Below, one piece after another: positions 9,048 to 50,459 of a DNA stretch of 64,000 nt. Position 1 is the stretch's first letter, and each line of letters begins with the position of its first letter. Source of the stretch: Dehalococcoidia bacterium (lineage in GTDB: Bacteria; Chloroflexota; Dehalococcoidia; Lucifugimonadales; SHYT01); the NCBI GenBank assembly GCA_009692665.1, contig SHYT01000008.1, positions 14,764 to 78,763 on the forward strand, read 5' to 3'. The notes beneath the pieces were generated by a model, which ran no database searches, was not told where the DNA came from, and saw only the letters and a program-made list of their open reading frames with translations. The position numbers and the translations under genes are program-made.

Positions 9048-10307
9048 ATGTTCTTCATGCATTTCACAGAGAAACCTTGGCAAGACGACAGAACTGAGCG
9101 TGTAGGCCAGAACGACTTCGACTTGGAACTGAGCAACGGTTTCTATGACCCAGTGTTGGGCAACAAGCTCTATAACCGCTACATTGACGAAGATATTTTC
9201 TGTGAAGAGATGGGCTTTGACGGCCTCATGCTCAACGAGCACCATAGCACGCCAGGCTGCATGCAAGGTGTCACCAACGTTGGGTTGTCCATCTTGGCCC
9301 GCGTTACCAAGAAAATCAAGTTGATTCCCCTTGGGAACATTCTCCCTGCTTGGGATGACCCCATGTGGCTCGCGGAACAGCTAGCCATGATCGACGTGAT
9401 TTCCGGCGGCCGCTTGGTCTCCGGCTGGGTGCGTGGTACTGGCCGGGAGCACGTGGTGCACAACACGCATCCCCCGTCCAACTGGGAGCGGTTCCAAGAG
9501 GCACACGACCTCATCATCAAGACCTGGACAACACCTGGGCCGTTCCGCTGGGAAGGGAAGCATTTCCAGTACCGGTATGTGAACCCCTGGGTCGTGCCCT
9601 ACCAGAAACCCCATCCGCCTATCTGGATTCCGGGCACAGCAAGCCGTGCCACCGTGGATTGGGCTGCCAAGAACGGGTTCCCGTACATCATCTTGGGGGC
9701 CGAGCTGGAAGCGACAAAGAGCACGTTTGCGTACTACCACACCGCGGCTGCGGAGTATGGGTTCAAGACGGGTACCCAGCACAATGGGGAGCTCATCAAG
9801 GTCCACTGTGAAGCCACAGAAGAGAAGGCTGACGAGGTCGGACGGAAATTCCTGGGCGGAGTCCGGAATCCTTTCCTGCTTGGTAATGAAGGGCGTGTGA
9901 AGTCGTGGGTGCAAGCCCTCCCAGGGCTGTCACCGAGGAAAGCGGCTGAGAGGATCGAAACGGGCATCGGTCCAGTTGGCCGCGGCGGTCCGGCCGGTGG
10001 CGCACAGTCAGCCTCATACGAAGAACAGTCCGCAAAATACTTGATCATCAGCGGCACACCCAAAACCGTTATTACCAGGGTGAAACATGTGATGGAGCAG
10101 ACGAGGCCTGGTACCCTGCTCCTTTGGGACGGCGAAGGGGCCATGAACCATGAGGACCACATGCGCAGCCTGAAACTCCTGGGGACGGAAGTCCTGCCTG
10201 CGCTGCGTGACTATGCAAAAGAACTGGGCATCGTTGGCCCGTTTGACACGAATCCGGTTGCCGGTATGACCCGCGGCTTGGTCCCAGAGGCGGTAACGGC
10301 TCGCTAG
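9048..10307 (+). CDS. Luciferase-like (LLM) flavin-dependent monooxygenase, subfamily A copy 1
   Basis: GFDGLMLNEHHSTPGCMQ and IDVISGGRLVSGWVRG match the LLM TIM-barrel pattern. Close paralog of 27807-29075. Confidence 0.85.
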   Translation: MFFMHFTEKPWQDDRTERVGQNDFDLELSNGFYDPVLGNKLYNRYIDEDIFCEEMGFDGLMLNEHHSTPGCMQGVTNVGLSILARVTKKIKLIPLGNILPAWDDPMWLAEQLAMIDVISGGRLVSGWVRGTGREHVVHNTHPPSNWERFQEAHDLIIKTWTTPGPFRWEGKHFQYRYVNPWVVPYQKPHPPIWIPGTASRATVDWAAKNGFPYIILGAELEATKSTFAYYHTAAAEYGFKTGTQHNGELIKVHCEATEEKADEVGRKFLGGVRNPFLLGNEGRVKSWVQALPGLSPRKAAERIETGIGPVGRGGPAGGAQSASYEEQSAKYLIISGTPKTVITRVKHVMEQTRPGTLLLWDGEGAMNHEDHMRSLKLLGTEVLPALRDYAKELGIVGPFDTNPVAGMTRGLVPEAVTAR

Positions 10308-10381
10308 CCTCCGCGGTTTTTGGCATGGGATATTCCAAAACGCGCTATGAGCTAGTGTCGTAGCACAAAAAGGGGTTCTAG

Positions 10382-12262
10382 ATGTTAAATCCCGTCCGGC
10401 GCCCTATACCCATTCTGCTTGTTGGCATTCTAGCGCTCGTTTTTGCCTTAGCCTGTTCAAAAGCAGCAGCCCCTGCAGCAACGCCTTCACCTGCGCCATC
10501 GACTACCCCATCGCCCACGGCTGCGCCCGCCCCGGCCACTGCGCCCGCGGCAATTACGGCGCCACTGGCCTCCGCAGGAGTGTTCGCGGTCGATCCGCGG
10601 TCAGACGAGCCGGGGTCTACCATGCCGCAAGAGGTCTTGAAGTACAACTACACCAAGCTGCCCATGTGGACAAAAGCGAAGTACGGCGGCGAACGCGTCG
10701 GAAACGGGGGAACGTATAGCATCCTCCAGCAAAACCCGTTCACGTCCTTTAGCAAGCGCAACATCTTTGCGGGCATGTTCATCATGATTGACGCCGGGAC
10801 GTGCAGCTCCATTGGGCGGACGGACTTCTCTGAGTGCAATGGCGTCCGTAACAACGCCCTTGTTGGCACGCTGGTGCCTGGTCTGGTGGAGAAGTGGGAG
10901 CGGCCAGACCCGCTGACGGTGGTTCTTACCCTACGGCAGGGGGTGCTCTGGCCCAACTTGCCACCCATGAACCTCCGCCCCAACCGGAATGTCACCGTGG
11001 AAGATATGAAGTGGTACTTTGAAACGCAGAAGAATGAAGGCGTCTACCGGGACACCTTCGCATTGGTGGACACCTTTGAGGTCGTCGACAGCCGGACGTT
11101 GCGTCTGCGTTTTGCCCAGCCTCACTCCACCTTCATTCAGATGCTGGCCAACTACGGCCTTGGCATCATCCCCAGGGAATGCTACGAGGATAAGGCGGGA
11201 TGCCTGGCCAAGCGTCTCATCTCCCCAGGTCCGTTCATCTATGATGAAGCGGGTTCCGAGCCTGGTAACAAAGTGATCTACAAGAAGAATCCCGAATTTT
11301 GGCTCAAAGGACTCCCCTACCTGGACCAACTGCGGACGATCCGGGTCACGGATTTGGCGGCACAGCGGGCGGCCTATATCACGGCGCAGTTCGATCAGTT
11401 CGCGGTATATTCGCCGCGAGAGCGCGATCAGCTTCTGAAGGAAACGCCGGCTTCGCAAGTCCAAACACAGTATTGCTCCTGCGGGTCTGCCCATTTTCAG
11501 ATGCGGATGGACCAAGCGCCGTTGAACGACGTGCGTGTCCGCCGTGCGCTGTCCATGGCCATGGACAGGCCCAAGGCGTGGTTAGCTGGCAACGACGGCT
11601 ACAACGCCATGGGTTCACCGATGGCGTTCGACTTTTTGGGCCTCAACCTCTTCGTCAGCCTGAAAACTGCGGGCCCATACAACCAGTACAACCCTGCGGA
11701 AGCAAAACGGCTCCTTGCTGAAGCTGGCTATCCAAGCGGTTTTGCGATCACTGTTAACATAGCAAATAGTGGAGCCAGCACCCAGTACGGAAGCGTCGAG
11801 ATGGTTACTTCGTTACAACAGGACTGGGCCAAGGTCGGTGTGACCTTGCAACTAAAACTCATTGACGCTCAGGCGGAAGCTGGTTTGAGGCGCGACAAGA
11901 AATGGGATGGCATGCTGTTCAGTCAGTGCTATGACTGTAACGCCACTGACCCGGACAGCTACTTCCTCGTCGGCTATTCCAAGAGTGTCCGGAATTTGCA
12001 GGGGATCAATGACCCCATCATCGACGATATGTACCTGAAAGCCCGTTCTGAGGTGGACCCCAAGAAGCGGGAGCAGATCTACTGGGACTTCAACAACCGC
12101 ATGTTTGACCAGATGTATGGTATGCACTTTGGCAATCCTAGCGGCTTTGAGTTTTTTGCCCCATGGCTCAGGAACGCCTCAAGCCATGTGTGGGCCTACG
12201 CTAGTATCACCAACTTTGCCAGTTGGGTCATGTGGATTGATCCCGACCTCATGAAGAAATAA
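10382..12262 (+). CDS. Lipoprotein, ABC-type family-5 solute-binding protein (SBP1)
   Basis: Signal peptide with lipobox (LVFALAC), then a Pro/Ala/Thr-rich tether, then an SBP_bac_5-like body. Close paralog of 42915-44807. Confidence 0.85.
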   Translation: MLNPVRRPIPILLVGILALVFALACSKAAAPAATPSPAPSTTPSPTAAPAPATAPAAITAPLASAGVFAVDPRSDEPGSTMPQEVLKYNYTKLPMWTKAKYGGERVGNGGTYSILQQNPFTSFSKRNIFAGMFIMIDAGTCSSIGRTDFSECNGVRNNALVGTLVPGLVEKWERPDPLTVVLTLRQGVLWPNLPPMNLRPNRNVTVEDMKWYFETQKNEGVYRDTFALVDTFEVVDSRTLRLRFAQPHSTFIQMLANYGLGIIPRECYEDKAGCLAKRLISPGPFIYDEAGSEPGNKVIYKKNPEFWLKGLPYLDQLRTIRVTDLAAQRAAYITAQFDQFAVYSPRERDQLLKETPASQVQTQYCSCGSAHFQMRMDQAPLNDVRVRRALSMAMDRPKAWLAGNDGYNAMGSPMAFDFLGLNLFVSLKTAGPYNQYNPAEAKRLLAEAGYPSGFAITVNIANSGASTQYGSVEMVTSLQQDWAKVGVTLQLKLIDAQAEAGLRRDKKWDGMLFSQCYDCNATDPDSYFLVGYSKSVRNLQGINDPIIDDMYLKARSEVDPKKREQIYWDFNNRMFDQMYGMHFGNPSGFEFFAPWLRNASSHVWAYASITNFASWVMWIDPDLMKK

Positions 12263-12307
12263 CCTGAAGCGCGCTAGGTGTGGCTGGCGAACTACGGGAA
12301 GCTGCCA

Positions 12308-15030: not shown

Positions 15031-15098
15031 CCCGCAAGCTATGGTCTCGGCCGGCGCCTACCGAACAACCAAAGCCGAAGGGAAAGGGGGTGGTATCC

Positions 15099-15848
15099 AT
15101 GCCAACAGTGCTCTATGAAAAGAAGGGCCACGTCTCCTATGTGACACTCAACCGGCCAGAGGTCCTTAACGCCATTAACTCAGAGATGCGTGAGGAGCTC
15201 GAGCAGGTATGGTTCGATTTCGAGCAGGACCCGGACGCATGGGTTGCCATCATGACCGGCGCGGGCCGCGGCTTCTCCGCTGGTGGTGACCTGCGGGCTC
15301 GCGACCGCGGAGCGGCCCCCACGAGGCCTGCGCATAGCTACAGCCACAGGGACGTTATGAAGCCCATCATCTGCGGCATCAATGGCCCGGTCCGGGCGGC
15401 GGGTATGGACATGATGCTGCCGTGCGACATCCGTGTCGCCGCAGATGTCGCAACCTTTGGCATGACCATGACCAGCTGGGGTGTCATGGCCTCCACCGGA
15501 GCCTCGCAGCTCCCGCGCTCCATTAGGTGGGCGAATGCTATGGAGTTGCTTATGACCGCGGAGCCTATCAACGCCCAGGAGGCCTATCGCATTGGCCTGG
15601 TGAACAAGGTGGTGCCCCTGGAGAAACTGATGGAGACGTGCGACGAGTACGCGGCGAAGATTTTGCGGAACTCCCCGACCGCTATCCGCCTGACGAAGGA
15701 AGCCGCCGTGCGCGGCAGAGACGCTACCCTGGCGGAGAGCTTGCACATCGGTTCCATGCTGGGACGCTACTCTGGGACAACTGAGGACTCCAAGGAAGGG
15801 CCAAAGGCGTTTACAGAAAAGCGTAAGCCCAACTGGAAGAACCACTAA
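15099..15848 (+). CDS. Enoyl-CoA hydratase/isomerase (crotonase fold)
   Basis: VTLNRPEVLNAIN and IMTGAGRGFSAGGDL are crotonase signatures. ATG 15099 follows AAGGGGG. Confidence 0.85.
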   Translation: MPTVLYEKKGHVSYVTLNRPEVLNAINSEMREELEQVWFDFEQDPDAWVAIMTGAGRGFSAGGDLRARDRGAAPTRPAHSYSHRDVMKPIICGINGPVRAAGMDMMLPCDIRVAADVATFGMTMTSWGVMASTGASQLPRSIRWANAMELLMTAEPINAQEAYRIGLVNKVVPLEKLMETCDEYAAKILRNSPTAIRLTKEAAVRGRDATLAESLHIGSMLGRYSGTTEDSKEGPKAFTEKRKPNWKNH

Positions 15849-16028
15849 CAGCCTCATTGTGGTGTTTTGCACGCTGTATCTTGGACAGGCATGCAGAACA
15901 CACCCAAAGGCCAGGAACATTTGCAAAAGTTTCGATTTTTTGCTGACTAAAGCCAATCAAAACTGAAAAAATGGAAAAGGGGGGACGCGAGAGCCGTTCT
16001 CTCGGTTCTGGCTAGAGGCCGGCCAGCC

Positions 16029-18530: not shown

Positions 18531-18808
18531 GAAGGTCGCAGGCGCAGACCCCCGAGCCGTGCCGAGGCGTAGAGTCAAAATGGAAAGGGCAGGAAAGTCC
18601 CTCTCCTCGTGGGAGAGGTCGCAGACTCTGAGCTTGCCGAAGAGGATTTAGGGTGAGGTTGGCTGGGCGGAGAGGATCTGCCGCTACAGCGACAGTTTTC
18701 AATACAGATTGGCATTCTGGCAAGAGCACGTACAATTCCGAGCCACAGCGTTACCCGACTGCTGCCGCCAGGCTCCGAGTAGGGTGGAATCCGCAGCCCT
18801 TCGTGTCT
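18531..18808. repeat. Intergenic repeat cluster B
   Basis: Cores GTCGCAGGCGCAGACCCCCGAGCC (18535-18558) and GTCGCAGACTCTGAGC (18618-18633), and the hairpin CCTCTCC-TCGTG-GGAGAGG. GTTACCCGACTGC (18750) and GGGTGGAATCCGCAGCCCTTCG (18782-18803) are matched in cluster C. Confidence 0.6.
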
Positions 18809-19481
18809 ACCACCGTTCGAATTTGATGCGCTCTGAGGGCACATGCATGCTCCGCAGGTCCTTATTGAGTCCGTCAACCATTTCTTGTGGCCCGCACAAA
18901 TAAAATACAGGGCGCTTTTTGTCAAACTCTTCTAGTTCCTTGCGCCCGATTCGGCCTTCGCCCGATTCCGTAACGCGGGGCACATAGTGAATGTGGCTGG
19001 CGTTGGCGGCAAGACGGCCCAACTCTTTTCGATACAGTAGCTCGTCAGCGCTATGCACGCTGTGTACAAGTGTGGTCTGAACACGTGGTTCAAACCGCGC
19101 AACGAATCGAACAATGCTCATGAGCGGCGTGAGACCAATGCCTCCCGCGATTAGTAGTAGGTCTTGTGCGGAACCGGGTTTGTAGTAAAAGTCGCCATAA
19201 CCGCCGTCTAAATACAGGGTATCGTCAACCGTTGCGGATTCATGGAGATAGTGGGTCACAGGATTTATTCCCACACGCTTCACTGCCAGCTCAATAAACT
19301 CGGTGTCAGCCGGTGTTGACGTCATTGAATAGCCGGCGACAATCTCCGGCTTTTGGGGGTCCAGATAACAGTCTAGCCATTGGCCGGGCAGGAACTGAAA
19401 TGTCTGTCCGGATAGCACCAGCTTAAACGAGCGTACGGTAGGGGTTTCTTGTGTTATTGCTGCGATTGTGACGCGGATCAT
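18807..19481 (-). CDS. FAD/NAD(P)-binding ferredoxin-reductase-type oxidoreductase
   Basis: FR-type FAD domain (GQWLDCYL, AGYSMTS) and NAD-binding LLLIAGGIGLTPLMSI. ATG 19481 follows GGAG; the longest ORF starts at GTG 19505. Confidence 0.75.
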   Translation of the reverse strand: MIRVTIAAITQETPTVRSFKLVLSGQTFQFLPGQWLDCYLDPQKPEIVAGYSMTSTPADTEFIELAVKRVGINPVTHYLHESATVDDTLYLDGGYGDFYYKPGSAQDLLLIAGGIGLTPLMSIVRFVARFEPRVQTTLVHSVHSADELLYRKELGRLAANASHIHYVPRVTESGEGRIGRKELEEFDKKRPVFYLCGPQEMVDGLNKDLRSMHVPSERIKFERW

Positions 19482-19752
19482 CAAGACTCCAAGTGGCGAA
19501 AGCACCCAGGTTGAGAAGATCAGTCGGCTGAATTATATGGCCCATAGCGTTCAAATGGGCCGGCTATCTTCCAGGAAACCGTGCCCCGTTCACCTGCACT
19601 GTAGTCACGCATGGTAGAATCGGGACATACTGTCAGGACGCAGTTCGGAGCGGCCATCCGCATCACATCTGGCGAGAGTAGTGGTAGCAACGAGCACCTC
19701 TGATACGACCTGTTACCACGGTTATCCTACATTGCAGAAGGAGGCATCCACA

Positions 19753-22146
19753 ATGGTTCAGCAGGCAAAAGAGAAAGCCAAGTATAAAGTCATCGGCACC
19801 AGGCCAATCCGCCATGATGGCGTGGACAAGGTAACAGGGCGTGCCCAGTATGGCGCAGACATCCGGCCTACTGGGCTCCTGTACGCCAAGATGCTCCGCA
19901 GCCCGCACGCGCACGCGCGCATCAAGAAGATAGACGTCAGCCGAGCCTTGGCCCACCCGGGAGTGCGCGCGGTGGTCACGTCCGCGGACCTGGCAGAGCA
20001 ACCGCCCCGCATCGCAGACTTGGGCGAGGGCTCATTTACGAACATGGGATTCCTGTGCATGAACGTCCTCGCGCGCGGAAAGGTCCTGTTCAAAGGCCAC
20101 GCGGTAGCCGCTGTGGCCGCCATCAACGCCCATGTTGCAGAAGAAGCCGTAGGGCTGATTGACGTGGAATACGAGGTGCTTCCTGTCGTTTTGGATGGGC
20201 TGGAGGCCATGAAGCCGGACGCGCCCTTGCTGCACGAGCGTCTCGCAAGCCTTTCCAACCCCAATGTCCGCCCCGGCGGCCTTATGGACGAGAGCGATAA
20301 GCGGAAAGGCAGCAACGTCGCCAACCACTTCGTCTTTGAGATTGGCGATATCGCTAAGGGTTTTGCGCAGGCGTCTATCGTTGTAGAGCGCTGGTACAAG
20401 GTCTCAGCGGCCCATCAGGGGTACATTGAGCCGCTCTCCGCAACGGCCAAATGGAATCCGGACAGCTCGCTCACCATCTGGTGCAGCAGCCAGGGCCACT
20501 TCACTATCCGGGAGCAGACTGCCAAGCTCCTCGGCCTGCCGGTATCCAAGGTCAAAGTAGTCCCAATGGAAATCGGCGGCGGGTTCGGTGCAAAAACCCA
20601 GGTCTTCCTGGAACCCGTTGTCGCCCTCCTCTCCAAAAAGTCTGGCCATCCGGTCAAGATGACTATCAACCGCACGGAGGTCTTTGAGGCCATCGGTCCT
20701 ACGTCCGGCGGCTACGTTCGTGCCAAGATGGGCGTCACCACGGAAGGCCGCATCATTGCCGCGGATGCCACCCTGGTCTACGAGGCTGGCGCGTTCCCAG
20801 GTTCTCCCGTCAGCGGCGGCGCGCAGTGCCTCCTCGGCCCGTACGACATCCCGAACGCGCGCGTTGAGGGATACGACGTCGTGGTAAACAAGCCCAAAGT
20901 CACCGCCTATCGCGCCCCCGGCGCGCCCAGCGGTGCCTTCGCGGCCGAGTCTCTAATAGATGAAATCGCACAGCAGCTCAAGATGGACCCCATAGACTTC
21001 CGGTTAATGAACTCCGCCAAAGAAGGTACGCGCAGGGTGAGCGGTCCCGTCTTCGGCAGCGTCGGCTTTGTAGAGGTGCTGAAGGCCGCCAAAGCGCACC
21101 CGCATTGGAAGGCCCCGCTTACTGGCAAGAACCGTGGGCGCGGTGTGGCTGCTGGGTTCTGGCACAACGGTGCCGGGCCCGCCAGCGCTACGGTCAGTGT
21201 CAACGCGGATGGCACGGTCAACCTCGTGGAAGGCTCGCCGGACATCGGAGGCAGCCGCGCTACCGCTGCTATGCAGGTGGCTGAGGTGCTGGGCTTGCGC
21301 GCGGAAGACGTTCGGCCCCAGGTGGCGGACACCGAGTCCATTGGCTTCACGTCTACCACCGGCGGCAGCGGCGCAACCTTCAAGACCGGCTGGGCCTCCC
21401 ATGACGCCGCCCAAGAGGTGAAGCAGCAAATGCTGGCCCGCGCCGCTACCATCTGGAATGTGAAACCTGACGATCTTAAGTACGAGGGAGGGGTGATCTC
21501 CCACAAGTCGGATCCCGCCCTCCGCATGCCCTTCCGTGACCTGGCGGCCAGGCTGAATGACACCGGCGGCCCCATTGCTGGCCGTGGCGCCGTGAACCCA
21601 CGTGGTGTAGGCGCGGCCCTCTCCGTCAACATCGCGGACGTTGAGGTTGACCCGGACACCGGCAAGACAACTGTCCTGCGCTATACCGCAATTCAGGACG
21701 TCGGTACCGCCATCCACCCAAGTTACGTGGAGGGCCAAATGCAAGGTGGCGCCGTCCAGGGCATCGGCTGGGCATTGACGGAAGAGTTCTATTTCAGCGA
21801 CAAGGGCCAGATGATGAACTCTTCGTTCTTGGACTACCGCATGCCTACCGCGCTGGACATCCCCATGATCGATACGGTCGTCGTCGAGGTGCCCAACCCA
21901 GGCCACCCATTCGGAGTGCGCGGCGTCGGCGAAGTCTGCATCGTGCCTCCGCTGGCGGCCATCGGCAACGCAATCCACCGCGCTACTGGCGTTCGCATGC
22001 ATACCCTGCCCATGAGCCCAAACAATCTTCAGCGGGCAATCGCTAAGAAAGGCGATGATGTCCACTGGACGGTTCCTACCAGCAACGGCGCGTCGCAGTC
22101 CATGAAAGCCGCCGTAGACGCCGAAGGTATCGAGCGCCATGAGTAA
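19753..22146 (+). CDS. Xanthine dehydrogenase/aldehyde oxidase-family molybdopterin-binding large subunit (L1)
   Basis: IGTRPIRHDGVDKVTGRAQYGAD N-terminus, AYRAPGAP, and the C-terminal RGVGEVCIVPPLAAIGNAI Glu loop. ATG 19753 follows GAAGGAGG. Confidence 0.9.
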   Translation: MVQQAKEKAKYKVIGTRPIRHDGVDKVTGRAQYGADIRPTGLLYAKMLRSPHAHARIKKIDVSRALAHPGVRAVVTSADLAEQPPRIADLGEGSFTNMGFLCMNVLARGKVLFKGHAVAAVAAINAHVAEEAVGLIDVEYEVLPVVLDGLEAMKPDAPLLHERLASLSNPNVRPGGLMDESDKRKGSNVANHFVFEIGDIAKGFAQASIVVERWYKVSAAHQGYIEPLSATAKWNPDSSLTIWCSSQGHFTIREQTAKLLGLPVSKVKVVPMEIGGGFGAKTQVFLEPVVALLSKKSGHPVKMTINRTEVFEAIGPTSGGYVRAKMGVTTEGRIIAADATLVYEAGAFPGSPVSGGAQCLLGPYDIPNARVEGYDVVVNKPKVTAYRAPGAPSGAFAAESLIDEIAQQLKMDPIDFRLMNSAKEGTRRVSGPVFGSVGFVEVLKAAKAHPHWKAPLTGKNRGRGVAAGFWHNGAGPASATVSVNADGTVNLVEGSPDIGGSRATAAMQVAEVLGLRAEDVRPQVADTESIGFTSTTGGSGATFKTGWASHDAAQEVKQQMLARAATIWNVKPDDLKYEGGVISHKSDPALRMPFRDLAARLNDTGGPIAGRGAVNPRGVGAALSVNIADVEVDPDTGKTTVLRYTAIQDVGTAIHPSYVEGQMQGGAVQGIGWALTEEFYFSDKGQMMNSSFLDYRMPTALDIPMIDTVVVEVPNPGHPFGVRGVGEVCIVPPLAAIGNAIHRATGVRMHTLPMSPNNLQRAIAKKGDDVHWTVPTSNGASQSMKAAVDAEGIERHE

Positions 22147-22171
22147 TTCCTAACCAAGGGCCGCAAGAAGA

Positions 22172-22200
22172 AGCTAGGGCGGGTACATCCCGCCCTAGCT
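22172..22200 (+). terminator. Terminator hairpin after L1
   Basis: Perfect 12-bp stem AGCTAGGGCGGG / CCCGCCCTAGCT with a TACAT loop, 26 nt after the stop. No strong T tract. Confidence 0.5.
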
Positions 22201-22362
22201 GTTATGAGGATGTCCGTCGAGCGCAGCGAAGGAGAAATCCTCCCGCCCTCGTATCCAATCCAACTACATGGCCGCTGAGGCTGCTCTCGCACTACCCAAG
22301 AGCCTTACACAAAAATGCTCGGTGCATGCACGAAAAGCCGCCGCCATCCACACGACCTTCTG

Positions 22363-22512
22363 TTGTCATTCTGAACCGCAGTGTTACCCGACTCGGTGTT
22401 ACACGACTGCTAACAGTAGGGCTCCGCGTAGGGTGAAGAATCCGCAGCCCTTCGCAGACTCCGAGCCGGGCCGAGGGGTCGCAGATCCTGAGCCAAAGCC
22501 GAAGGAGAGAAA
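22363..22512. repeat. Intergenic repeat cluster C
   Basis: GTTACCCGACT (22383), GGGTGAAGAATCCGCAGCCCTTCG (22431-22454), cores CGCAGACTCCGAGCC (22453-22467) and GTCGCAGATCCTGAGCC (22478-22494), then AAAGCCGAAGGAGAG. Co-linear with part of cluster B. Confidence 0.6.
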
Positions 22513-23263
22513 CGTCCCGACCTTTTTGTCCAAAACCACTACCTAAAGAAAGCGATCATCAACCCCTTGCTTCACACCTCTCGCGGCGAAATACTTGAAA
22601 GAGTGCGGAGTCGTGCTCTGGCTCGCTACGAAAACAATGTGCAATTGAAAACGTGCCAACCAGCAGCCAGTGGCACTGTGGCTAATCCGAAGTGCCGTTC
22701 TAAGTTGCACTGCAACTCCTCAGAAATACCTGACTGCCTGGCGTGACGCGGCCTTGCACGAAAATCTGCCCTGAGGATACTCGTGCGCAGGCACGCTCAG
22801 TCCCCCCTCCTGCGAGAGTGGGCGAGGGTGCTACGCAACACCCCGTGCCGATGCACTTGCACTCAAGCACCAAACAGTTTGAAAGCAAAGCCCCCGTGAG
22901 CAATGGAAAGGGGCAAGGAAGTAACGTTACATAATAAGTTAGCTAGTAAAGTACAGGAGGGGTCATGAAGGCTCACCACGCTGGGGACTGTGTTTCTACA
23001 AGGGGCAATCTTGATCCCAGAATCAGGGCAAGGTATCTTGTGACACCCTCAGTGCCTGGGCCATCGCGGGCCAGTTGCGACACAATGCACTCATTCCTGT
23101 AATCCTCAACGGCAATGCAGCGGAAGTCGTTAACGCTGCATCTCCCGCTCCAATGACAGTAGTGGCCATACTTGGCAGGCTTGACGTATAACAGTAAGAT
23201 TCATGCAACCTGCAAGTACCCACAGCGGCACAATACGGAAGTATCTAGCAAGAAGGGGACTCG

Positions 23264-25588
23264 ATGACAACTACCTCTGGTCGCACAAATACCCCTGCCA
23301 CCCAATACAAAGTCGTCGGCACAAGGCCAATTCGCCACGATGGAGCGGATAAAGTAACAGGGCGCGCTCGGTATGGCCTAGACTTCAACGTGGTAGGTCT
23401 GCTGCATGGGAAAATCCTTCGTAGCCCACACGTACATGCCAGGATCAAGTCCATTGACACCAGCGCAGCCGAAAAGTTGCCAGGGGTTAAGGCGGTAGTC
23501 ACAGCGCGTGATTTCCCCGCCAACCCGAAAGGCCAACCCATCGATTTTGCGGAAGCGGGCGCCGACGTCCGCGTACTAGCCGAAAATATCATGGCTGGCC
23601 GAGTGGTCTTGTACCAGGGCCATGCGGTTGCAGCAGTCGCCGCTACCAACGAGCATATTGCGGAAGAAGCCCTGGGTCTCATCAAGGTAGAGTACGAAGT
23701 ATTGCCTGCATTGCTGGACGTGCGGGAATCCATGAAACCGGATGCGCCTCTTATCCACGAAAAGCTGACTACATTTTTTACAAAGGACCGGCAGGGTAGA
23801 GGCGAGAACACCGGCGTCAAGAGCAACATCGCCACCCACTTGCAGTTTAAGCGCGGTGACCTCGCCACTGGCTTCAAAGAAGCCCACGTCGTCGTGGAAC
23901 GAGAGTTCACAACCTCCATGGTGCATCAGGGCTATATCGAGCCCTACGTCTCTACAGGTCAGTGGGGGAAAGACGGGCGTATCACTGTTTGGACGAGCAC
24001 ACAGAATCCGTTTGGCATACGGGCTTCCACTGCCGCAATCCTTGGAGTGCCTGAGTCCACAGTTAAGGTCGTCTCCATGGAAATTGGCGGCGGGTTCGGT
24101 GGCAAGCAACCCGCGTACCTGGATCCCGTGGCAGCCATGTTGTCCAAGAAGAGCGGTCGTCCGGTCAAGATCGTCATGACGCGCAAAGAAGTGTTTGATA
24201 GCACTGGCCCTGCCTCCGGCTCGTACCTGCGTTGCAAAATCGGCGCCACAAAGGACGGGCGGATCACTGCGGCCGAACTGTATTTGGCGTACGAGGCTGG
24301 TGCATTTCCAGGTTCACCAATCGCTGGCGGCGCAATGAGTAGCTTTGGCCCGTACAAAGTGGAAAACATGATGGTTGAAGGCTACGATGTGGTCGTCAAC
24401 AAGCCCAAAGTGCAGGCCTACCGTGCCCCCGGGCAACCACAGACAAACTTCGCTGTTGAGTCGGTAGTCGACGAGTTAGCTCAGAAGCTGGGTATAGATC
24501 CCCTGGAGTTTCGTATAAAGAACGCCACAGACGAGGGAGACCTGATGCCGAGTGGCATGGTGTTCCCTCCGATGGGTCTGAAGCAATTAGAAGAAGCAAT
24601 GAAGAACCACGATCACTATAAAACGCCATTGACTGGTCCCAATCGTGGTCGTGGGATTGCAGTGGGGTATCGTTTCAACGGTGGGGGAGTCTCCTCTGCG
24701 ACAATCAATGTAAACGACGATGGTACAGTCGCGCTGGTTACCGGATCAGTGGATATTGGAGGAACGCGAACATCTGTCGCGATGCAGGCGGCCGAAGTGC
24801 TTGGGCTTCGTGCAGAGGATGTCACCCCAACTGTGGTTGACACCGATTCGATTGGGTGGACCGGCACAACCGCCGGTAGCCGGGTTACTTTTGATACGGG
24901 CTTAGCCGCCATTACGACTGCGGAAGAAGTGAAGCGGCTTATGATCGCGCGGGCTGCCAAGATCTGGGAAGTACCGCCGGCGGAGGTTGCTTTTAAAGAC
25001 GGCGTCTTCACCTCCTTGAAGAATCCCAACGATAAGCTTACCTTCAAGCAATTGGCTGCTAGATTGCGAGCCACTGGCGGTCCTGTCACTGCTTCAGCAA
25101 TCAATGGCTCCACAGGCGTTGGTCCAATCTTCGCCGGCAATATCATAGACGTAGAGGTAGATCCCGAAACTGGGAAGGTTCAAATCTTGCGGTGCACAGC
25201 ATTCATGGACGCAGGCAAGGCCGTCCATCCCAGCTACGTAGAAGGCCAACTTCAAGGTGGTACTGCACAGGGAATTGGTTGGGCCTTAAACGAGGAGTAC
25301 TTCCTCACCAAGGAAGGTGGTATGGCCAATTCCACGTTCCTGGACTACCGCATGCCAACGGCGCTGGATTTGCCCCTGATAGATACGGTGCTTATTGAGG
25401 TGCCAAATCCACGGCATCCGTTTGGACTGCGTGGCGTCGGGGAGGTTCCCATTGTGCCGCCGCCAGCTGCTCTTGCAAATGCCATCGCACGGGCGACCGG
25501 AGCGCGGCTTACCAAGCTTCCCATGAAACCTGGCACTATTTGGGAAGCAGTAGAAGCACACAAGGCAGCCACCAAAACCAAGAAGTAG
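23264..25588 (+). CDS. Xanthine dehydrogenase/aldehyde oxidase-family molybdopterin-binding large subunit (L2, paralog of L1)
   Basis: VGTRPIRHDGADKVTGRARYG, AYRAPGQP and RGVGEVPIVPPPAALANAI are co-linear with L1 over the whole length. Confidence 0.9.
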   Translation: MTTTSGRTNTPATQYKVVGTRPIRHDGADKVTGRARYGLDFNVVGLLHGKILRSPHVHARIKSIDTSAAEKLPGVKAVVTARDFPANPKGQPIDFAEAGADVRVLAENIMAGRVVLYQGHAVAAVAATNEHIAEEALGLIKVEYEVLPALLDVRESMKPDAPLIHEKLTTFFTKDRQGRGENTGVKSNIATHLQFKRGDLATGFKEAHVVVEREFTTSMVHQGYIEPYVSTGQWGKDGRITVWTSTQNPFGIRASTAAILGVPESTVKVVSMEIGGGFGGKQPAYLDPVAAMLSKKSGRPVKIVMTRKEVFDSTGPASGSYLRCKIGATKDGRITAAELYLAYEAGAFPGSPIAGGAMSSFGPYKVENMMVEGYDVVVNKPKVQAYRAPGQPQTNFAVESVVDELAQKLGIDPLEFRIKNATDEGDLMPSGMVFPPMGLKQLEEAMKNHDHYKTPLTGPNRGRGIAVGYRFNGGGVSSATINVNDDGTVALVTGSVDIGGTRTSVAMQAAEVLGLRAEDVTPTVVDTDSIGWTGTTAGSRVTFDTGLAAITTAEEVKRLMIARAAKIWEVPPAEVAFKDGVFTSLKNPNDKLTFKQLAARLRATGGPVTASAINGSTGVGPIFAGNIIDVEVDPETGKVQILRCTAFMDAGKAVHPSYVEGQLQGGTAQGIGWALNEEYFLTKEGGMANSTFLDYRMPTALDLPLIDTVLIEVPNPRHPFGLRGVGEVPIVPPPAALANAIARATGARLTKLPMKPGTIWEAVEAHKAATKTKK

Positions 25589-27769: not shown

Positions 27770-27806
27770 GTGCTGCAAGAGTTGAAACGGAAAAAGGGGA
27801 AGTTCC

Positions 27807-29075
27807 ATGTTCATCATGCATTTCATGGAAGAAGCCTGGCAAGATGAGAAGTCTGGCTGGGTGGGCAGCAACACTAGCGACCTCCAGATCAGTAATAGCC
27901 TGTACGACCCCGTGCAGGCAAATAAGCTCTACCATCGGTACATAGACGAGAACCTCTTCTGTGAAGAGATGGGGTTTGATGGGCTCATGCTCAATGAGCA
28001 CCATAGCGCTCCTTTCTGTATGCAGGGCGTTACAAACGTCCAGCTCTCTATTCTGGCCCACGCCACTAAGAAGATTAAGCTAGTCCCGCTGGGAAACATC
28101 CTCCCGGCTTGGGATGACCCTATGTGGCTCGCCGAACAGCTAGCTATGATCGATGTGATTTCTGGCGGCCGCTTGGTCTCCGGCTGGGTGCGGGGTGGTG
28201 GCCGAGAACATGTGGTGCATAACACGCATCCGCCGTCCAACTGGGAGCGCTTCCAAGAGGCGCACGACCTCATCATCAAGGCCTGGACAACCCCAGGCCC
28301 CTTTCGCTGGGAGGGCAAGCATTACCAGTACCGCTATGTGAATCCTTGGGTTGTCCCTCTCCAGAAACCTCATCCTCCCATTTGGATTCCTGGGTCCGTG
28401 AGCCGCGCCACGGTCAATTGGGCGGCTAAGAACGGATACCCATACGTTATTCTTGGTGCAGAGCTGGAAGCGACAAAGAGCACATTTGCGTACTACCATC
28501 AGACGGCGGCGGAGTATGGGTTCAAAACGGGGACCCAGCACAACGGGGAACTCATCAAGGTTCACTGTGAGGAGACGGAAGAGAAGGCTGACGAGGCCGG
28601 ACGGAAGTTTCTGGGAGGGGTGAACAACCCTTTCCTCCTCGGAAACGAGGGAACTGTGCGCTCGAATATTACCGCGCTTCCTGGACTATCACCTAGGAGG
28701 GCCGAAGAAAGAATCGAAACTCGCGGCACTGCGCCGGTTGGTCGGGGTGGTGATGCCACTACTGGTAATTTGCGAGCCACATATGAAGAGCAATCCGCAA
28801 AATACCTGATCATCAGCGGCACACCCAAAACCGTTATTACCAGGGTGAAACACGTGATGGAGCAGACGAGGCCCGGAACACTCCTGCTCTGGGATGGTGA
28901 CGGGGCGATGACACACGAGGATCACATGCGCAGCCTGAAGCTCATGGGTAAGGAAGTGCTGCCTGCATTGCGTGACTATGCGAAAGAACTGGGCATTGTT
29001 GGCCCGTTTGATGTGGACCCGGTTGTTGGGATGACCCGCGGTTTGGTCTCAGGTATGGCAACTCCAACTCCATAA
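27807..29075 (+). CDS. Luciferase-like (LLM) flavin-dependent monooxygenase, subfamily A copy 2
   Basis: Co-linear with 9048-10307 and identical at most positions by eye. Same LNEHHS and IDVISGGRLVSGWVRG motifs. Confidence 0.85.
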   Translation: MFIMHFMEEAWQDEKSGWVGSNTSDLQISNSLYDPVQANKLYHRYIDENLFCEEMGFDGLMLNEHHSAPFCMQGVTNVQLSILAHATKKIKLVPLGNILPAWDDPMWLAEQLAMIDVISGGRLVSGWVRGGGREHVVHNTHPPSNWERFQEAHDLIIKAWTTPGPFRWEGKHYQYRYVNPWVVPLQKPHPPIWIPGSVSRATVNWAAKNGYPYVILGAELEATKSTFAYYHQTAAEYGFKTGTQHNGELIKVHCEETEEKADEAGRKFLGGVNNPFLLGNEGTVRSNITALPGLSPRRAEERIETRGTAPVGRGGDATTGNLRATYEEQSAKYLIISGTPKTVITRVKHVMEQTRPGTLLLWDGDGAMTHEDHMRSLKLMGKEVLPALRDYAKELGIVGPFDVDPVVGMTRGLVSGMATPTP

Positions 29076-44807: not shown

Positions 44808-44875
44808 CGGTGGCAACCAGGTAACTAAGTTCTAACAGAGGTTAGACTAGACTAGTCGGCAAGCATGAGCACCGA

Positions 44876-47387: not shown

Positions 47388-47418
47388 GGCGCACTCTTTC
47401 TCAGGAAGGCCGACTACC

Positions 47419-48721: not shown

Positions 48722-49603
48722 GTGCAGGCATTTGAGTATGTAAGCGCAAAGTCGGTAGGGGAGGCGGTTGGCGTCCTGTCTCAGCATGGTGAAGGGGCTC
48801 GCCTTATGGCGGGTGGGACAGATGTATTGGTACAGCTCCGGGCAGGGCGGCGCCCTCAGGTCAAGGTGTTGGTCGATGTCAAAGGTATCGGCGAGCTCAA
48901 CGAGCTTTCCTACAATGACCGTCAGGGCCTTATCATCGGGGCTGCCGTGCCTTGCTATCGCATCTACGAAGATCCCACGGTCATTAAGAGGTATCCAGGC
49001 ATCGTGGACTCCGCCTCAATTATTGGAAGTGTTCAAATCCAGGGCCGCGCATCGTTGGGCGGCAATATCTGCAATGCTACGCCCAGTGCAGATGGCATTC
49101 CCCCGCTCATTGCGTTGGGCGCGGTGTGTATCATAGCTGGCCCAAACAATAGTCGGCGGGAACTGCCTTTGGAGCAATTGTTTGCTGGACCTGGCCGCAC
49201 GACACTGCAGAACGGAGAGATGCTTATCTCCGTCAGGGTGCCGCCGCCGCCAGCCAACTCTGGAGCGCAATATCTGCGCTTTACACCTCGCAACGAAATG
49301 GATATCGCTGTTGCTGGAGTTGGTGCAGCTATCACTTTGAATGCCGCAAAGAACACGTTCGTATCTGGGCGCGTGGTTCTGGCTGCCGTTGCGCCTATAC
49401 CGCTGTTGGTGCCTGCCGCGGGCCAGGCGTTGGCTGGCAAGCCGGTGAACGATGAGACCATTGGCAAAGCGGCGGAAGCTGCGGTAGCAGCAGCGGTTCC
49501 GATTACTGACATGCGTGGCACTATTGAATACCGCAAGCACCTGGTAGGGGTACTGACCCGCCGGGCTCTCCAAGGTGCAATTCAAAGGGCGAAGGGGGTA
49601 TAG
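48722..49603 (+). CDS. Molybdenum hydroxylase FAD-binding (medium, CoxM/XdhB-like) subunit
   Basis: FEYVSAKSVGEAVGVL...LMAGGTDVLVQLR and GGNICNATPSADG match the FAD_binding_5 pattern. GTG start after AGGAGGG. Confidence 0.85.
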   Translation: MQAFEYVSAKSVGEAVGVLSQHGEGARLMAGGTDVLVQLRAGRRPQVKVLVDVKGIGELNELSYNDRQGLIIGAAVPCYRIYEDPTVIKRYPGIVDSASIIGSVQIQGRASLGGNICNATPSADGIPPLIALGAVCIIAGPNNSRRELPLEQLFAGPGRTTLQNGEMLISVRVPPPPANSGAQYLRFTPRNEMDIAVAGVGAAITLNAAKNTFVSGRVVLAAVAPIPLLVPAAGQALAGKPVNDETIGKAAEAAVAAAVPITDMRGTIEYRKHLVGVLTRRALQGAIQRAKGV

Positions 49604-49607
49604 TCAC

Positions 49608-50093
49608 GTGGCTGATAAAGTTCGAGTGCAATCAACTATCAATGAGGAAACCGTTGATTTTCTGTGCGAGCCTCGCCAGAGCTTGCTGGAGACGCTCCGG
49701 GATGTCTTGGGCATGACCGGTACCAAGGAAGGCTGCAACGACGGTAACTGCGGTGCTTGCACCGTCATTATTGATGGCAGAATGGTAACCTCATGCTTGG
49801 TGCTGGGGGTTGAAGCAAGCGGCAAGAAGATTGAGACCATTGAAGGCGTGTCTCAGCCGGATCATTTGCACCCCATTCAGCAGGCGTTCTTGGAAGGCGC
49901 AGCTCTGCAATGCGGCATTTGCACACCTGGCTTTATCATGGCGTCAAAGGCGCTGTTGCAGGTTGAGCCAAAGCCGTCGGAAGAGCGTATTCGCCTGTGG
50001 CTGGCTGGTAACCTCTGCCGCTGCACGGGCTACGACAAAATTGTCCGCTCTGTACAGAGCGCCGCCACTAAAATGAGTGGAGAGCGTAGGTAG
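49608..50093 (+). CDS. Molybdenum hydroxylase [2Fe-2S] (small, CoxS/XdhC-like) subunit
   Basis: GCNDGNCGACTV and CGICTPGF...CRCTGY cysteine clusters. GTG 49608 follows AAGGGGG, 4 nt after the medium-subunit stop. Confidence 0.9.
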   Translation: MADKVRVQSTINEETVDFLCEPRQSLLETLRDVLGMTGTKEGCNDGNCGACTVIIDGRMVTSCLVLGVEASGKKIETIEGVSQPDHLHPIQQAFLEGAALQCGICTPGFIMASKALLQVEPKPSEERIRLWLAGNLCRCTGYDKIVRSVQSAATKMSGERR

Positions 50094-50171: not shown

Positions 50172-50459
50172 ATGGCAGATGTCTGGATTCCGCCCATCAT
50201 GCAGCAGTGGACAGGCGGAGCGAAGCGCGTCCAGGTGTCAGGTGCTAGTATTCGGCAGATTATTGACAATTTGGAGCGACTCTATCCAGGTATTGCCGAG
50301 CATTTATATGAGGTTGACGAGGACAGACTAATGCCCGGCCTCGCCGTGTTTGTGGACGGCGAGGCCGCTACTCTTGGTCTCATGGAATCCGTCAAAGAAA
50401 ATGGTGAAGTCCACTTTCTTCCCGCTATTGGTGGCGGGGCAACCGCCCACAAGCGCTAA
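50172..50459 (+). CDS. MoaD/ThiS-family ubiquitin-like sulfur-carrier protein with C-terminal extension past Gly-Gly
   Basis: MADVWIPPIMQQWTGGAKRVQVSG...GEVHFLPAIGGG follows the ThiS/MoaD beta-grasp pattern but continues ATAHKR before the stop. The start is uncertain; the longest ORF starts at 50109. Confidence 0.65.
   Translation: MADVWIPPIMQQWTGGAKRVQVSGASIRQIIDNLERLYPGIAEHLYEVDEDRLMPGLAVFVDGEAATLGLMESVKENGEVHFLPAIGGGATAHKR

What the first reader, a model, noticed from the sequence alone, without database searches (positions are those of the whole stretch)
18807..25588. Two orphan molybdenum-hydroxylase large-subunit paralogs in tandem; the only FAD and 2Fe-2S subunit genes lie about 23 kb away
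L1 (19753-22146) and L2 (23264-25588) are full-length paralogs. Both carry AYRAPG rather than the CODH form I signature, and both have the GVGE glutamate loop. A 1.1-kb repeat-rich, apparently non-coding spacer separates them. Neither has adjacent medium or small subunits, which is the usual L-M-S or S-M-L operon arrangement. One M plus S pair sits at 48722-50093 without a large subunit. A divergent FAD/NAD(P) ferredoxin-reductase-type gene (18807-19481) flanks L1. This suggests one electron-transfer module shared by two catalytic subunits, or L subunits that use a different redox partner.
Basis: partly seen in the sequence, partly recalled or inferred. Interest (0 to 1): 0.6.

Follow-up and report, generated by a model that had tools for sequence, protein, structure and literature searches.

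The report
Unlinked molybdenum-hydroxylase catalytic subunit genes
Two intact genes for the catalytic subunit of a molybdenum hydroxylase lie side by side without the usual electron-transfer subunit genes, and about 100 related loci show this separation is normal for their lineages in Dehalococcoidia/SAR202-type bacteria, so the flavin/iron-sulfur gene pair 23 kb away probably serves several catalytic subunits.

Summary
L1 (19753-22146) and L2 (23264-25588) are full-length xanthine-dehydrogenase-family large subunits, 57% identical, and both keep every catalytic residue checked. The window contains exactly two L genes, one M gene and one S gene. The 1.1-kb spacer is non-coding but is not repeat-rich.

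The orphan state is not peculiar to this genome. L1 belongs to a clade of 60 metagenomic loci (522 kb of flanks) with no S gene nearby. All three L2-type orthologue contexts examined are also solo. Related L genes sit in M-S-L-ThiS operons.

The window's M-S-ThiS cluster (48722-50459) has that operon's gene order without the L gene. Its M+S is sister to an operon-linked M+S in 200 of 200 bootstraps. A second genome carries an L-less M-S pair 41 kb from a solo L.

The FNR-like gene is not conserved next to L anywhere else and looks like a flavin reductase.

Best reading (confidence 0.55): the detached catalytic subunits assemble in trans with a separately encoded M-S module. No assembly has been shown, and the rest of the genome is unseen. 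I call this a new variant of a known kind, of moderate interest.

The parts
18807..19481 (-). FNR-like flavin reductase gene (224 aa; ORF extends to 19505), divergent from L1. Judged not to be part of the Mo-hydroxylase system.
   Evidence: Pfam FAD_binding_6 + NAD_binding_1 with no Fe-S domain. Best matches are the reductase domains of flavohaemoprotein, BenC, MmoC and Fre, none at a curated cut-off. A homologue lies next to L only in L001, which is the same organism.
19753..22146 (+). L1: Mo-cofactor-binding catalytic (large) subunit, 797 aa, of the L1-type detached lineage.
   Evidence: Pfam three-domain architecture. Q247, F278, R387 and E727 align to catalytic and cofactor residues of KdhL and CODH and are invariant in alignment A1. 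Orthologues reach 66-72% identity in many metagenomes. The L1-type core clade holds only detached members in 98 of 100 bootstraps.
22172..22200 (+). Perfect 12-bp stem-loop 26 nt after the L1 stop, terminator-like. It implies that L1 and L2 are separate transcription units.
   Evidence: Folding gives dG -28.6 kcal/mol, z -4.8, and 0 of 200 shuffles fold as well.
22147..23263 (.). 1117-bp non-coding spacer between L1 and L2.
   Evidence: No ORF longer than 92 aa. No blastx hit at E<0.5 other than to its own copy in L001 (same organism). No Rfam match. Not repeat-rich. Promoter-like site at 23172-23200, and an AAGGGG ribosome-binding site before the L2 ATG.
23264..25588 (+). L2: Mo-cofactor-binding catalytic (large) subunit, 774 aa, of the L2-type detached lineage.
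   Evidence: Pfam. Same catalytic residues as L1. Orthologues reach 66-74% identity. The L2-type clade is monophyletic in 100 of 100 bootstraps. Three orthologue contexts are all solo.
48722..49603 (+). M: FAD-binding medium subunit, 293 aa.
   Evidence: Pfam FAD_binding_5 + CO_deh_flav_C, both full length. The closest homologues (64-66% identity) sit in M-S-L-ThiS operons.
49608..50093 (+). S: small subunit with two [2Fe-2S] clusters (161 aa from GTG 49608; the ORF opens at 49575).
   Evidence: Pfam Fer2 + Fer2_2. Both four-Cys motifs are present. Start inferred from sequence. 75-79% identical to S of L095, L096 and L098.
50172..50459 (+). ThiS/CysO-like ubiquitin-fold sulfur-carrier gene (95 aa from ATG 50172; ends ...PAIGGGATAHKR). 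It marks the 3' end of the ancestral M-S-L-ThiS operon.
   Evidence: Pfam ThiS 28.1 bits against a cut-off of 22.5. Best solved relatives are the CysO-type carriers 4n6e_B and 3dwg_C. Homologues lie directly after L in 29 of 89 loci and end in GG(G).

Best explanation
L1 and L2 are intact, separately transcribed catalytic subunits of xanthine-dehydrogenase-family molybdenum hydroxylases. They belong to two old paralogous lineages whose genes have left the ancestral M-S-L-ThiS operon.

The cluster at 48.7-50.5 kb (M, S, ThiS-like sulfur carrier) has the gene order of that operon without an L gene. The most likely mechanism is assembly in trans. The FAD subunit M and the 2x[2Fe-2S] subunit S are made from one locus and dock onto whichever L paralogue is expressed. 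This would give L1-M-S and L2-M-S enzymes with different substrate pockets and a common electron exit route.

Shown here: gene integrity, catalytic residues, lineage-wide detachment, the operon relationship of M-S-ThiS, and a second genome with the same split.

Inferred: physical assembly, that this particular M-S pair is the partner, the substrates, and the role of the sulfur carrier (Moco synthesis or sulfuration).
For: 1. Integrity. Both L genes have full three-domain architecture. The Gln, Phe, Arg and Glu that align to CODH E763/R387 and KdhL F269/R383/E748 are present and invariant in 15 relatives. Both have good ribosome-binding sites. Orthologues reach 66-74% identity in many assemblies.

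2. Detachment is lineage-wide. In the L1 clade, 60 loci with 522 kb of flanks have no S hit and one weak M-like hit. 35 of these loci have at least 1.5 kb upstream and 23 have at least 3 kb on both sides. The L1-type core holds only detached members in 98 of 100 bootstraps. The L2-type clade is monophyletic in 100 of 100, and L093, L094 and L101 are all solo.

3. Relatives 57-62% identical to L1 sit in M-S-L(-ThiS) operons. 12 of 16 evaluable clade-A loci do, as do L095 and L096.

4. The window's M-S is followed by the ThiS-like gene. Its M+S is sister to the M+S of operon L095 in 200 of 200 bootstraps.

5. On one 1.09-Mb contig, an M-S pair with no L lies 41 kb from a solo L1-type L.

6. No other redox-partner family recurs beside detached L genes. 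The only recurrent neighbours are ThiS-like (29 of 89 loci), luciferase-like monooxygenase (17), S (14) and M (14). The Pfam lists show no ferredoxin or cytochrome genes.

7. Detached L genes show no relaxation of the N-terminal domain, which embraces S in Kdh (PMC8305194). Mean conservation is 0.72 in both detached and linked sets. The 21 positions relaxed in detached L genes are scattered, and several lie next to the active-site loops (282, 356-362, 380-383).

8. Precedent: the functional Kdh enzyme of pAO1 has kdhL separated from kdhMS by pnh, and it was reconstituted from separately cloned kdhL and kdhMS (PMC10494377, PMC8305194).
Against: No direct evidence of L-S-M contact exists; no complex prediction, expression data or proteomics were available. 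Only 64 kb of an 89-kb MAG contig is visible, so other M-S pairs may exist elsewhere in the genome. L1 and L2 are equally distant (59-61% identity) from the L genes of the closest M-S-L-ThiS operons, so neither is clearly the L that left this operon. Deep nodes of the L tree are poorly resolved, at 40-62% bootstrap for the broad detached clade. M-S lies directly after two acyl-CoA dehydrogenase genes on the same strand, so it could serve another role. The interface argument is at domain level only, because no interface residues were mapped.
Confidence: 0.55

Rival explanations
1. L1 and L2 do use canonical M and S subunits, but these are encoded by other M-S pairs outside the window. The pair at 48.7 kb would then serve a third L gene elsewhere, or another function.
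For: Only part of one MAG contig is visible (contig of 89,190 bp). M homologues are very numerous in related metagenomes. L1 and L2 are equidistant from the L genes of the nearest M-S-L-ThiS operons.
Against: No L other than L1 and L2 lies within 23 kb upstream or 14 kb downstream of M-S. The same split, with M-S tens of kb from a solo L, recurs on a 1.09-Mb contig. Detached L genes far outnumber M-S pairs in the 0.5 Mb of flanks surveyed.
Confidence: 0.2
2. Detached L subunits work without M and S. They would pass electrons from the molybdenum centre directly to a soluble ferredoxin, a cytochrome or oxygen, or act non-catalytically.
For: Whole lineages have no M or S within 10 kb. Family members without an FAD subunit are known, for example the D. 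gigas aldehyde oxidoreductase matched (1sij_A); that it lacks FAD is from my own knowledge.
Against: Every solved relative matched has the two [2Fe-2S] clusters in a separate subunit or a fused domain (my knowledge of these entries, and PMC8305194 for Kdh). L1 and L2 have no fused Fe-S domain. No alternative partner gene recurs nearby. The S-embracing N-terminal domain is as conserved in detached as in linked L genes.
Confidence: 0.15
3. The divergent FNR-like flavoprotein (18807-19481) replaces M as the electron acceptor or donor of L1.
For: It lies adjacent to L1 in divergent orientation, 271 bp away. It binds FAD and NAD(P)H by domain content.
Against: Its only homologue among the 100 other loci is in L001, the same organism. 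It has no Fe-S cluster to bridge to the Mo centre. Its size and matches fit Fre/flavohaemoprotein-type reductases. The window holds seven luciferase-like monooxygenase genes, which typically need such a reductase (the need is from general knowledge).
Confidence: 0.03
4. L1 and L2 form an L1-L2 heterodimeric core, which would explain the tandem arrangement.
For: The genes are adjacent on the same strand. Family enzymes dimerise through L (general knowledge of the (LMS)2 structures listed).
Against: The tandem is not conserved. L2-type genes in L093, L094 and L101 have no second L within 10 kb, and almost no L1-type locus has one either. A terminator-like hairpin and a 1.1-kb gap separate the two genes.
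Confidence: 0.05
5. L1 and/or L2 are decaying, non-functional relics.
For: Partner genes are not adjacent, and a long non-coding gap separates the two genes.
Against: Both reading frames are uninterrupted and full length, with every catalytic residue checked intact. Each has many orthologues at 66-74% identity with 200-plus invariant columns.
Confidence: 0.02

Closest known systems
Heterotrimeric (LMS)2 molybdenum hydroxylases of the xanthine oxidase family: 4-hydroxybenzoyl-CoA reductase HcrABC (1rm6), aerobic CO dehydrogenase CoxLMS (1n5w, 8uem), ketone dehydrogenase KdhLMS (7dqx) and quinoline 2-oxidoreductase QorLMS (1t3q)
   Same: L1 and L2 align end to end with these L chains (E 1e-74 to 1e-86). 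They share the catalytic Glu, the Arg of the AYR loop and the GGGFG Phe. M and S have the standard domains and cysteines. The operon-linked relatives use the order M-S-L, as in form I cox operons (PMC13203968).
   Different: No curated equivalog cut-off is reached; the best are HcrA at 466 against 995 bits and XdhA at 460 against 780 bits. The loop is AYRAPG, not AYXCSFR or AYRGAGR. The L genes are unlinked from M and S across whole lineages. A ThiS/CysO-like gene is attached to the operon.
Ketone dehydrogenase genes on plasmid pAO1 of Paenarthrobacter nicotinovorans (kdhL - pnh - kdhMS)
   Same: This is a working family enzyme whose L gene is not contiguous with M and S (PMC10494377). It was rebuilt from separately cloned kdhL and kdhMS (PMC8305194). 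KdhL also carries AYRAPG.
   Different: Only one gene intervenes, within a single pathway cluster, and there is one L per M-S pair. Here the separation is 23-41 kb or unknown, the L genes lie in unrelated neighbourhoods, and several L paralogues face one visible M-S pair.
Paralogue expansion of CO dehydrogenase/xanthine dehydrogenase-family proteins in SAR202 (Landry et al. 2017, PMC5395668)
   Same: The window is a Dehalococcoidia MAG. Its gene content is of the kind described there: many luciferase-like monooxygenases, CaiB-type CoA transferases, enoyl-CoA hydratases and MFS transporters. The named relatives are SAR202, Dehalococcoidia and Chloroflexota. That paper counted 28 such proteins in five single-cell genomes.
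   Different: I found no paper in the searchable library that describes the uncoupling of L from M-S, L-less M-S pairs, or the linked sulfur-carrier gene. One SAR202 study notes genomes annotated with coxS and coxM but no coxL (PMC11245477).
MoaD genes strictly adjacent to tungsten aldehyde:ferredoxin oxidoreductase genes (Iyer, Burroughs and Aravind 2006, PMC1779556)
   Same: A ubiquitin-fold sulfur carrier with a C-terminal Gly-Gly is encoded right next to a pterin-cofactor enzyme and away from the main cofactor operon.
   Different: The enzyme family differs (xanthine oxidase family, not AOR). The carrier is closest to CysO-type proteins. No MoeB or MoaE gene was seen nearby.

Membership tests
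Xanthine oxidase/dehydrogenase-family large (Mo-cofactor) subunit | a/b-hammerhead domain plus two Mo-cofactor-binding domains | tested here: met
   PF01315, PF02738 and PF20256 are all far above cut-off in L1 and L2.
Xanthine oxidase/dehydrogenase-family large (Mo-cofactor) subunit | Catalytic Glu, active-site Gln, Arg of the AYR loop and Phe of GGGFG | tested here: met
   E727 aligns to CODH E763 and KdhL E748. R387 aligns to CODH R387 and KdhL R383. F278 aligns to KdhL F269. Q247 lies in the SSQ/STQ motif. These come, and all are invariant in A1.
Xanthine oxidase/dehydrogenase-family large (Mo-cofactor) subunit | Fe-S (and usually FAD) subunit genes adjacent, or fused domains | tested here: not met
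   There is no M or S within 23 kb of L1 or L2 and no fused Fe-S domain. The same holds in 60 related loci. This is a usual arrangement, not a strict family definition.
Xanthine oxidase/dehydrogenase-family large (Mo-cofactor) subunit | Bound molybdopterin (cytosine dinucleotide) cofactor with a sulfido ligand | not testable with these tools
   Requires purified protein.
Form I aerobic CO dehydrogenase CoxL | AYXCSFR active-site loop; equivalog score | tested here: not met
   The loop is AYRAPG. TIGR02416 scores 319 and 302 bits against a cut-off of 991.
Form II CoxL-like | AYRGAGR loop | tested here: not met
   AYRAPGA in L1 and AYRAPGQ in L2. Motif definition from PMC13203968.
4-hydroxybenzoyl-CoA reductase (HcrABC) | Equivalog scores for alpha, beta and gamma subunits; Cys-rich [4Fe-4S] insertion in the FAD subunit | tested here: not met
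   TIGR03194 scores 466 and 455 against 995. TIGR03195 scores 122 against 405. M is 293 aa with only three Cys. That HcrB carries the insertion is from my own knowledge.
Xanthine dehydrogenase proper (XdhA / XdhB / PucD) | Equivalog score; Glu equivalent to bovine E802 after GGGFGGK | tested here: not met
   NF043082 scores 438 and 460 against 780. Position 282 is Thr in L1 and Gln in L2. The role of E802 is from my own knowledge.
Family medium (FAD) and small (2x[2Fe-2S]) subunits | FAD_binding_5 + CO_deh_flav_C; Fer2 + Fer2_2 with eight Cys | tested here: met
   and the sequences (CX4CX2C...C and CX2C...CXC).
ThiS/MoaD/CysO ubiquitin-fold sulfur carriers | Beta-grasp ThiS-family domain | tested here: met
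   PF02597 scores 28.1 bits against 22.5. Solved relatives are 4n6e_B (2.6e-9) and 3dwg_C (7.4e-8). The MoaD_arch and SAMP1 models score below cut-off.
ThiS/MoaD/CysO ubiquitin-fold sulfur carriers | Free C-terminal Gly-Gly for thiocarboxylate formation | tested here: inconclusive
   The window copy ends GGGATAHKR, with six residues after the glycines. Many homologues end exactly at GG(G). Processing would be needed and cannot be tested here.
Fre/LuxG-type NAD(P)H:flavin reductase (for the FNR-like gene) | Two-domain FAD_binding_6 + NAD_binding_1 protein of about 230 aa without Fe-S; equivalog score | tested here: inconclusive
   The architecture and size fit. NF005963 scores only 70 bits against 230 and LuxG 68 against 340, so it is a generic FNR-superfamily member.

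The most novel reading that the evidence does not exclude
In SAR202-type Chloroflexota the xanthine-oxidase-family enzyme has become a hub-and-spoke system. One FAD/[2Fe-2S] electron-transfer pair, kept with a dedicated ubiquitin-fold sulfur carrier, serves a set of interchangeable catalytic subunits. Those subunits are encoded singly across the genome, next to the pathways they serve. This would explain how these bacteria widen their range of oxidisable substrates by duplicating only the catalytic gene. A corollary is that the CysO-like carrier linked to L supplies sulfur for the cofactor or its sulfido ligand through a thiocarboxylate, a route not described for this enzyme family.
Probability: 0.35. 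Interest if true: 0.7.

Novelty: new variant of a known kind. Interest (0 to 1): 0.45.

Why it matters
Xanthine-oxidase-family hydroxylases are normally read from genomes as L-M-S operons. Surveys of marine CO oxidation and organic-matter oxidation count coxL, coxM and coxS hits on that basis.

If catalytic subunits in abundant deep-ocean Chloroflexota are routinely encoded apart from a small number of shared M-S modules, three things follow. First, operon-based rules will misjudge which L genes are functional. Second, reports of genomes with coxM and coxS but no coxL have a simple explanation. Third, the paralogue expansions thought to underlie oxidation of recalcitrant dissolved organic matter become cheaper to evolve.

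It also yields a concrete biochemical question: can one M-S pair activate several L subunits? The window supplies the exact genes to clone. The conserved sulfur-carrier gene is a new lead on how the cofactor of this enzyme family is matured in these bacteria.

Tried and rejected
1. FNR-like gene as partner: rejected. No homologue lies near L in 100 other loci.

2. Spacer as a repeat array, decayed gene or riboswitch: rejected. It has only short chance-size repeats, no blastx similarity to ThiS, M, S or any neighbour ORF, and no Rfam hit at E<=1.

3. Pseudogene reading: rejected.

4. Conserved L1-L2 tandem or heterodimer: rejected, because the tandem is absent in relatives.

5. L2 as the specific L that left the M-S-ThiS operon: only weakly supported. 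The L2-type clade groups with the operon-linked set rather than with L1-type in about 90% of bootstraps, but its immediate sister is a locus with unknown flanks. L1 and L2 are equally similar to the L genes of L095 and L096. I leave this open.

6. The genome-contig scan returned only five proteobacterial loci at about 50% identity, three of which are M-S-L. They served as the outgroup only.

7. The look-up of the closest L2 orthologue, P0122, found no record. The 89-kb NCBI contig itself is not in the contig index, so the rest of the contig could not be read.

8. Literature searches for orphan or shared subunits found nothing relevant; the 'orphan' hits were an author's name. The supplements of Landry et al. 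held no subunit counts.

9. I did not attempt an S+L fusion structure prediction.

Full report
WHAT IS IN THE WINDOW

L1 runs 19753-22146 (797 aa) from an ATG behind a GAAGGAGG ribosome-binding site. L2 runs 23264-25588 (774 aa). Both have the hammerhead domain plus the two Mo-cofactor-binding domains of xanthine-oxidase-family large subunits. They are 57% identical over 755 residues. AYRAPG sits at residues 385-390 and GVGE at 724-727 in both.

Alignment to solved structures places L1 E727 on the catalytic Glu of CO dehydrogenase (E763) and KdhL (E748). It places R387 on CODH R387 and KdhL R383, and F278 on KdhL F269. These residues and Q247 are invariant in 15 relatives. No curated NCBIfam equivalog is reached; the best are HcrA and XdhA at about half their cut-offs. 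The enzymes are therefore family members of unknown substrate. The residue after GGGFG(G/A)K, which is Glu in true xanthine dehydrogenases (my knowledge), is Thr in L1 and Gln in L2.

A tblastn of the whole window with L, M, S, FNR-like and ThiS-like queries finds exactly two L genes and one each of M, S, FNR-like and ThiS-like. M is 48722-49603. The S ORF is 49575-50093; S most likely starts at GTG 49608, four bases after the M stop, and has all eight cluster cysteines. A ThiS-family gene follows at 50172-50459, then a PadR regulator.

The rest of the window is filled with luciferase-like monooxygenases, CaiB-type CoA transferases, enoyl-CoA hydratases, acyl-CoA dehydrogenases, family-5 solute-binding proteins and MFS transporters. 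The proteins are identical to those of an NCBI 'Dehalococcoidia bacterium' MAG (MSP78908-MSP78930, contig of 89,190 bp). This gene content matches what has been described for SAR202 (PMC5395668).

THE SPACER

The 1117 bp between L1 and L2 is the largest gap in my ORF map. It has no ORF above 92 aa. It has no protein-level similarity to any ORF in 101 related loci. It has no Rfam match even at E<=1, so there is no Moco riboswitch.

It is not repeat-rich. Inside it there are only two-copy matches of 10-16 nt. It does contain a perfect 12-bp hairpin 26 nt after the L1 stop (dG -28.6 kcal/mol, z -4.8), which suggests that L1 and L2 are separate transcription units. It also contains two short motifs that each recur once in another intergenic region of the window. 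I could not explain these motifs.

THE ORPHAN STATE IS A LINEAGE PROPERTY

L1 has thousands of homologues. The top hits are 66-72% identical, and the named ones are SAR202, Dehalococcoidia and Chloroflexota, with one Tectomicrobia. Four contexts on long contigs showed the L gene alone.

A metagenome scan then gave 80 loci with L genes 57-68% identical to L1. I searched all their ORFs with the window's M, S, FNR-like and ThiS-like proteins. Three contexts appear:
- M-S-L-ThiS operons.
- L-ThiS pairs.
- L alone.

On a neighbour-joining tree these sort by clade. The clade holding L1 has 60 loci and 522 kb of flanks. It has no S hit at all and one weak M-like hit. 35 of its loci have at least 1.5 kb upstream and 23 have at least 3 kb on both sides. 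18 of 49 evaluable loci have a ThiS-like gene within 200 nt downstream. The other clade has M-S directly upstream in 12 of 16 evaluable loci.

The narrower L1-type core contains only detached members in 98 of 100 bootstraps. The deep split is weakly supported, at 40-62%.

L2 has its own orthologues at 66-74% identity. They form a clade in 100 of 100 bootstraps. That clade groups with the operon-linked set rather than with L1-type in about 90% of replicates. Three L2-type contexts (L093, L094, L101) are all solo, flanked by luciferase-like monooxygenase genes in two of them.

The tandem L1-L2 arrangement is not seen elsewhere.

WHERE THE M-S PAIR COMES FROM

The closest M homologues (64-66% identity) lie in M-S-L-ThiS operons (L095, L096). 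A tree of M+S places the window pair as sister to L095 in 200 of 200 bootstraps.

The window cluster M-S-ThiS therefore has the gene order of that operon with L missing; 78 nt separate S from the ThiS-like start. L1 and L2 are each 59-61% identical to the L genes of L095 and L096. I cannot say which of them, if either, left this operon.

A second case of the split exists. On contig ERZ25766727:ctg361884 (1.09 Mb), an M-S pair with no L (locus range 217-238 kb) lies 41 kb from a solo L1-type L (locus range 259-282 kb).

PARTNERS OTHER THAN M-S

The FNR-like gene has no homologue near L in any other locus except L001, which is the same organism. It is a 224-aa two-domain flavoprotein without an Fe-S cluster. 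It is nearest to the reductase domains of flavohaemoprotein, MmoC and BenC, and to Fre. A role as flavin reductase for the many luciferase-like monooxygenases is more plausible; this is an inference.

Clustering all ORFs within 6 kb of L in 89 loci gives only four recurrent families: ThiS-like (29 loci), luciferase-like monooxygenase (17), S (14) and M (14). No ferredoxin or cytochrome recurs, and none appears in the precomputed Pfam lists.

Detached L genes are as conserved as operon-linked ones in the N-terminal domain (0.72 against 0.72). In Kdh that domain embraces the S subunit (PMC8305194). The 21 positions conserved in linked but variable in detached L genes are scattered, and several lie beside active-site loops. 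This fits changes in substrate pocket rather than loss of the S interface. It is a domain-level argument only.

MECHANISM AND ITS LIMITS

The best-supported model is assembly in trans. M and S are made from their own locus and bind whichever detached L is expressed. The ThiS/CysO-like carrier acts in cofactor synthesis or sulfuration. Its relatives 4n6e_B and 3dwg_C are sulfur carriers, and the family ends in Gly-Gly.

Kdh of plasmid pAO1 is a modest precedent. Its kdhL and kdhMS are separated by one gene, and the enzyme was rebuilt from separately cloned parts (PMC10494377, PMC8305194).

Nothing here shows physical assembly. The rest of the genome is unseen, and M-S also sits just after two acyl-CoA dehydrogenase genes. 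I put 0.55 on trans-assembly with a separately encoded M-S module, with the visible pair as prime candidate. I put 0.20 on partners encoded elsewhere and 0.15 on function without M-S. The FNR-like, heterodimer and pseudogene readings get small values.

COMPARISON WITH WHAT IS KNOWN

Expansion of this family in SAR202 is published: 28 proteins in five single-cell genomes (PMC5395668). One study remarks on SAR202 genomes annotated with coxS and coxM but no coxL (PMC11245477). MoaD genes next to tungsten aldehyde oxidoreductases are known (PMC1779556).

I found no description of three things: lineage-wide uncoupling of L from M-S, L-less M-S modules, or a CysO-like gene tied to this family. The searchable library lacks most subscription journals, so absence there is weak evidence.

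VERDICT

The shared-module reading is supported but unproven, and the FNR-like reading is not supported. The arrangement is ordinary for these lineages yet unusual for the enzyme family. I call it a new variant of a known kind, with interest 0.45.

Noticed in passing
window 50172-50459; loci such as L024 4817-5092, L028 5979-6254, L031 12284-12556, L095 13900-14181: A ThiS/CysO-like ubiquitin-fold sulfur-carrier gene is the most frequent neighbour of this L family. It occurs in 29 of 89 loci, often 4 nt after the L stop. The proteins end in ...HFLPAIGGG, sometimes with a few extra residues. Its closest solved relatives are CysO-type carriers. I found no report linking such a gene to xanthine-oxidase-family enzymes.
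   Followed up: partly
window 22398-22454 and 18750-18803; window 22562-22595 and 53939-53972 (reverse complement): Two short intergenic motifs in the L1-L2 spacer each recur once in another intergenic region of the window, at 82% over about 55 nt and at 33 of 34 nt. They have no significant fold, no further copies in the window and none in the 101 related loci. Their function is unknown.
   Followed up: partly
window 9034-12263 versus 27793-29052 and 43138-44808: Segmental paralogy. A luciferase-like monooxygenase plus family-5 solute-binding-protein module is present three times, at 69-90% nucleotide identity in stretches of up to 300 nt. One copy lies directly downstream of L2.
   Followed up: no
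L007 10441-12468; L098 11435-13082; L097 11435-16788: An Fe-alcohol-dehydrogenase gene plus a 168/169-aa protein with no Pfam match follows L (then ThiS) in L007. The same pair follows an L-less M-S pair in L098. In L097, otherwise the same locus as L098, three DDE transposase genes split the Fe-ADH gene.
   Followed up: partly
window 46200-48576: Two acyl-CoA dehydrogenase genes lie directly upstream of M-S on the same strand (145-nt gap). This neighbourhood is not seen next to M-S in L095, L096 or L098. The best family matches of L1 and L2 include the CoA-thioester enzyme 4-hydroxybenzoyl-CoA reductase, and the window is rich in CoA-transferase, hydratase and thiolase-like genes, so CoA thioesters are a possible substrate class.
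   Followed up: no
window 15090-15848 (+) versus 15180-15956 (-): The longer minus-strand ORF has no Pfam match. The overlapping plus-strand ORF is a full-length enoyl-CoA hydratase, so the real gene is the plus-strand one.
   Followed up: yes
JGI contig Ga0438285_000124 (locus L095; also proteins P0046 and P0242): The contig carrying the M-S-L-ThiS operon closest to the window's M-S also appears to carry a separate 801-aa L1-type L (P0046); both report the same longest-contig length of 124,470 bp. One genome may therefore hold both linked and detached L genes.
   Followed up: no
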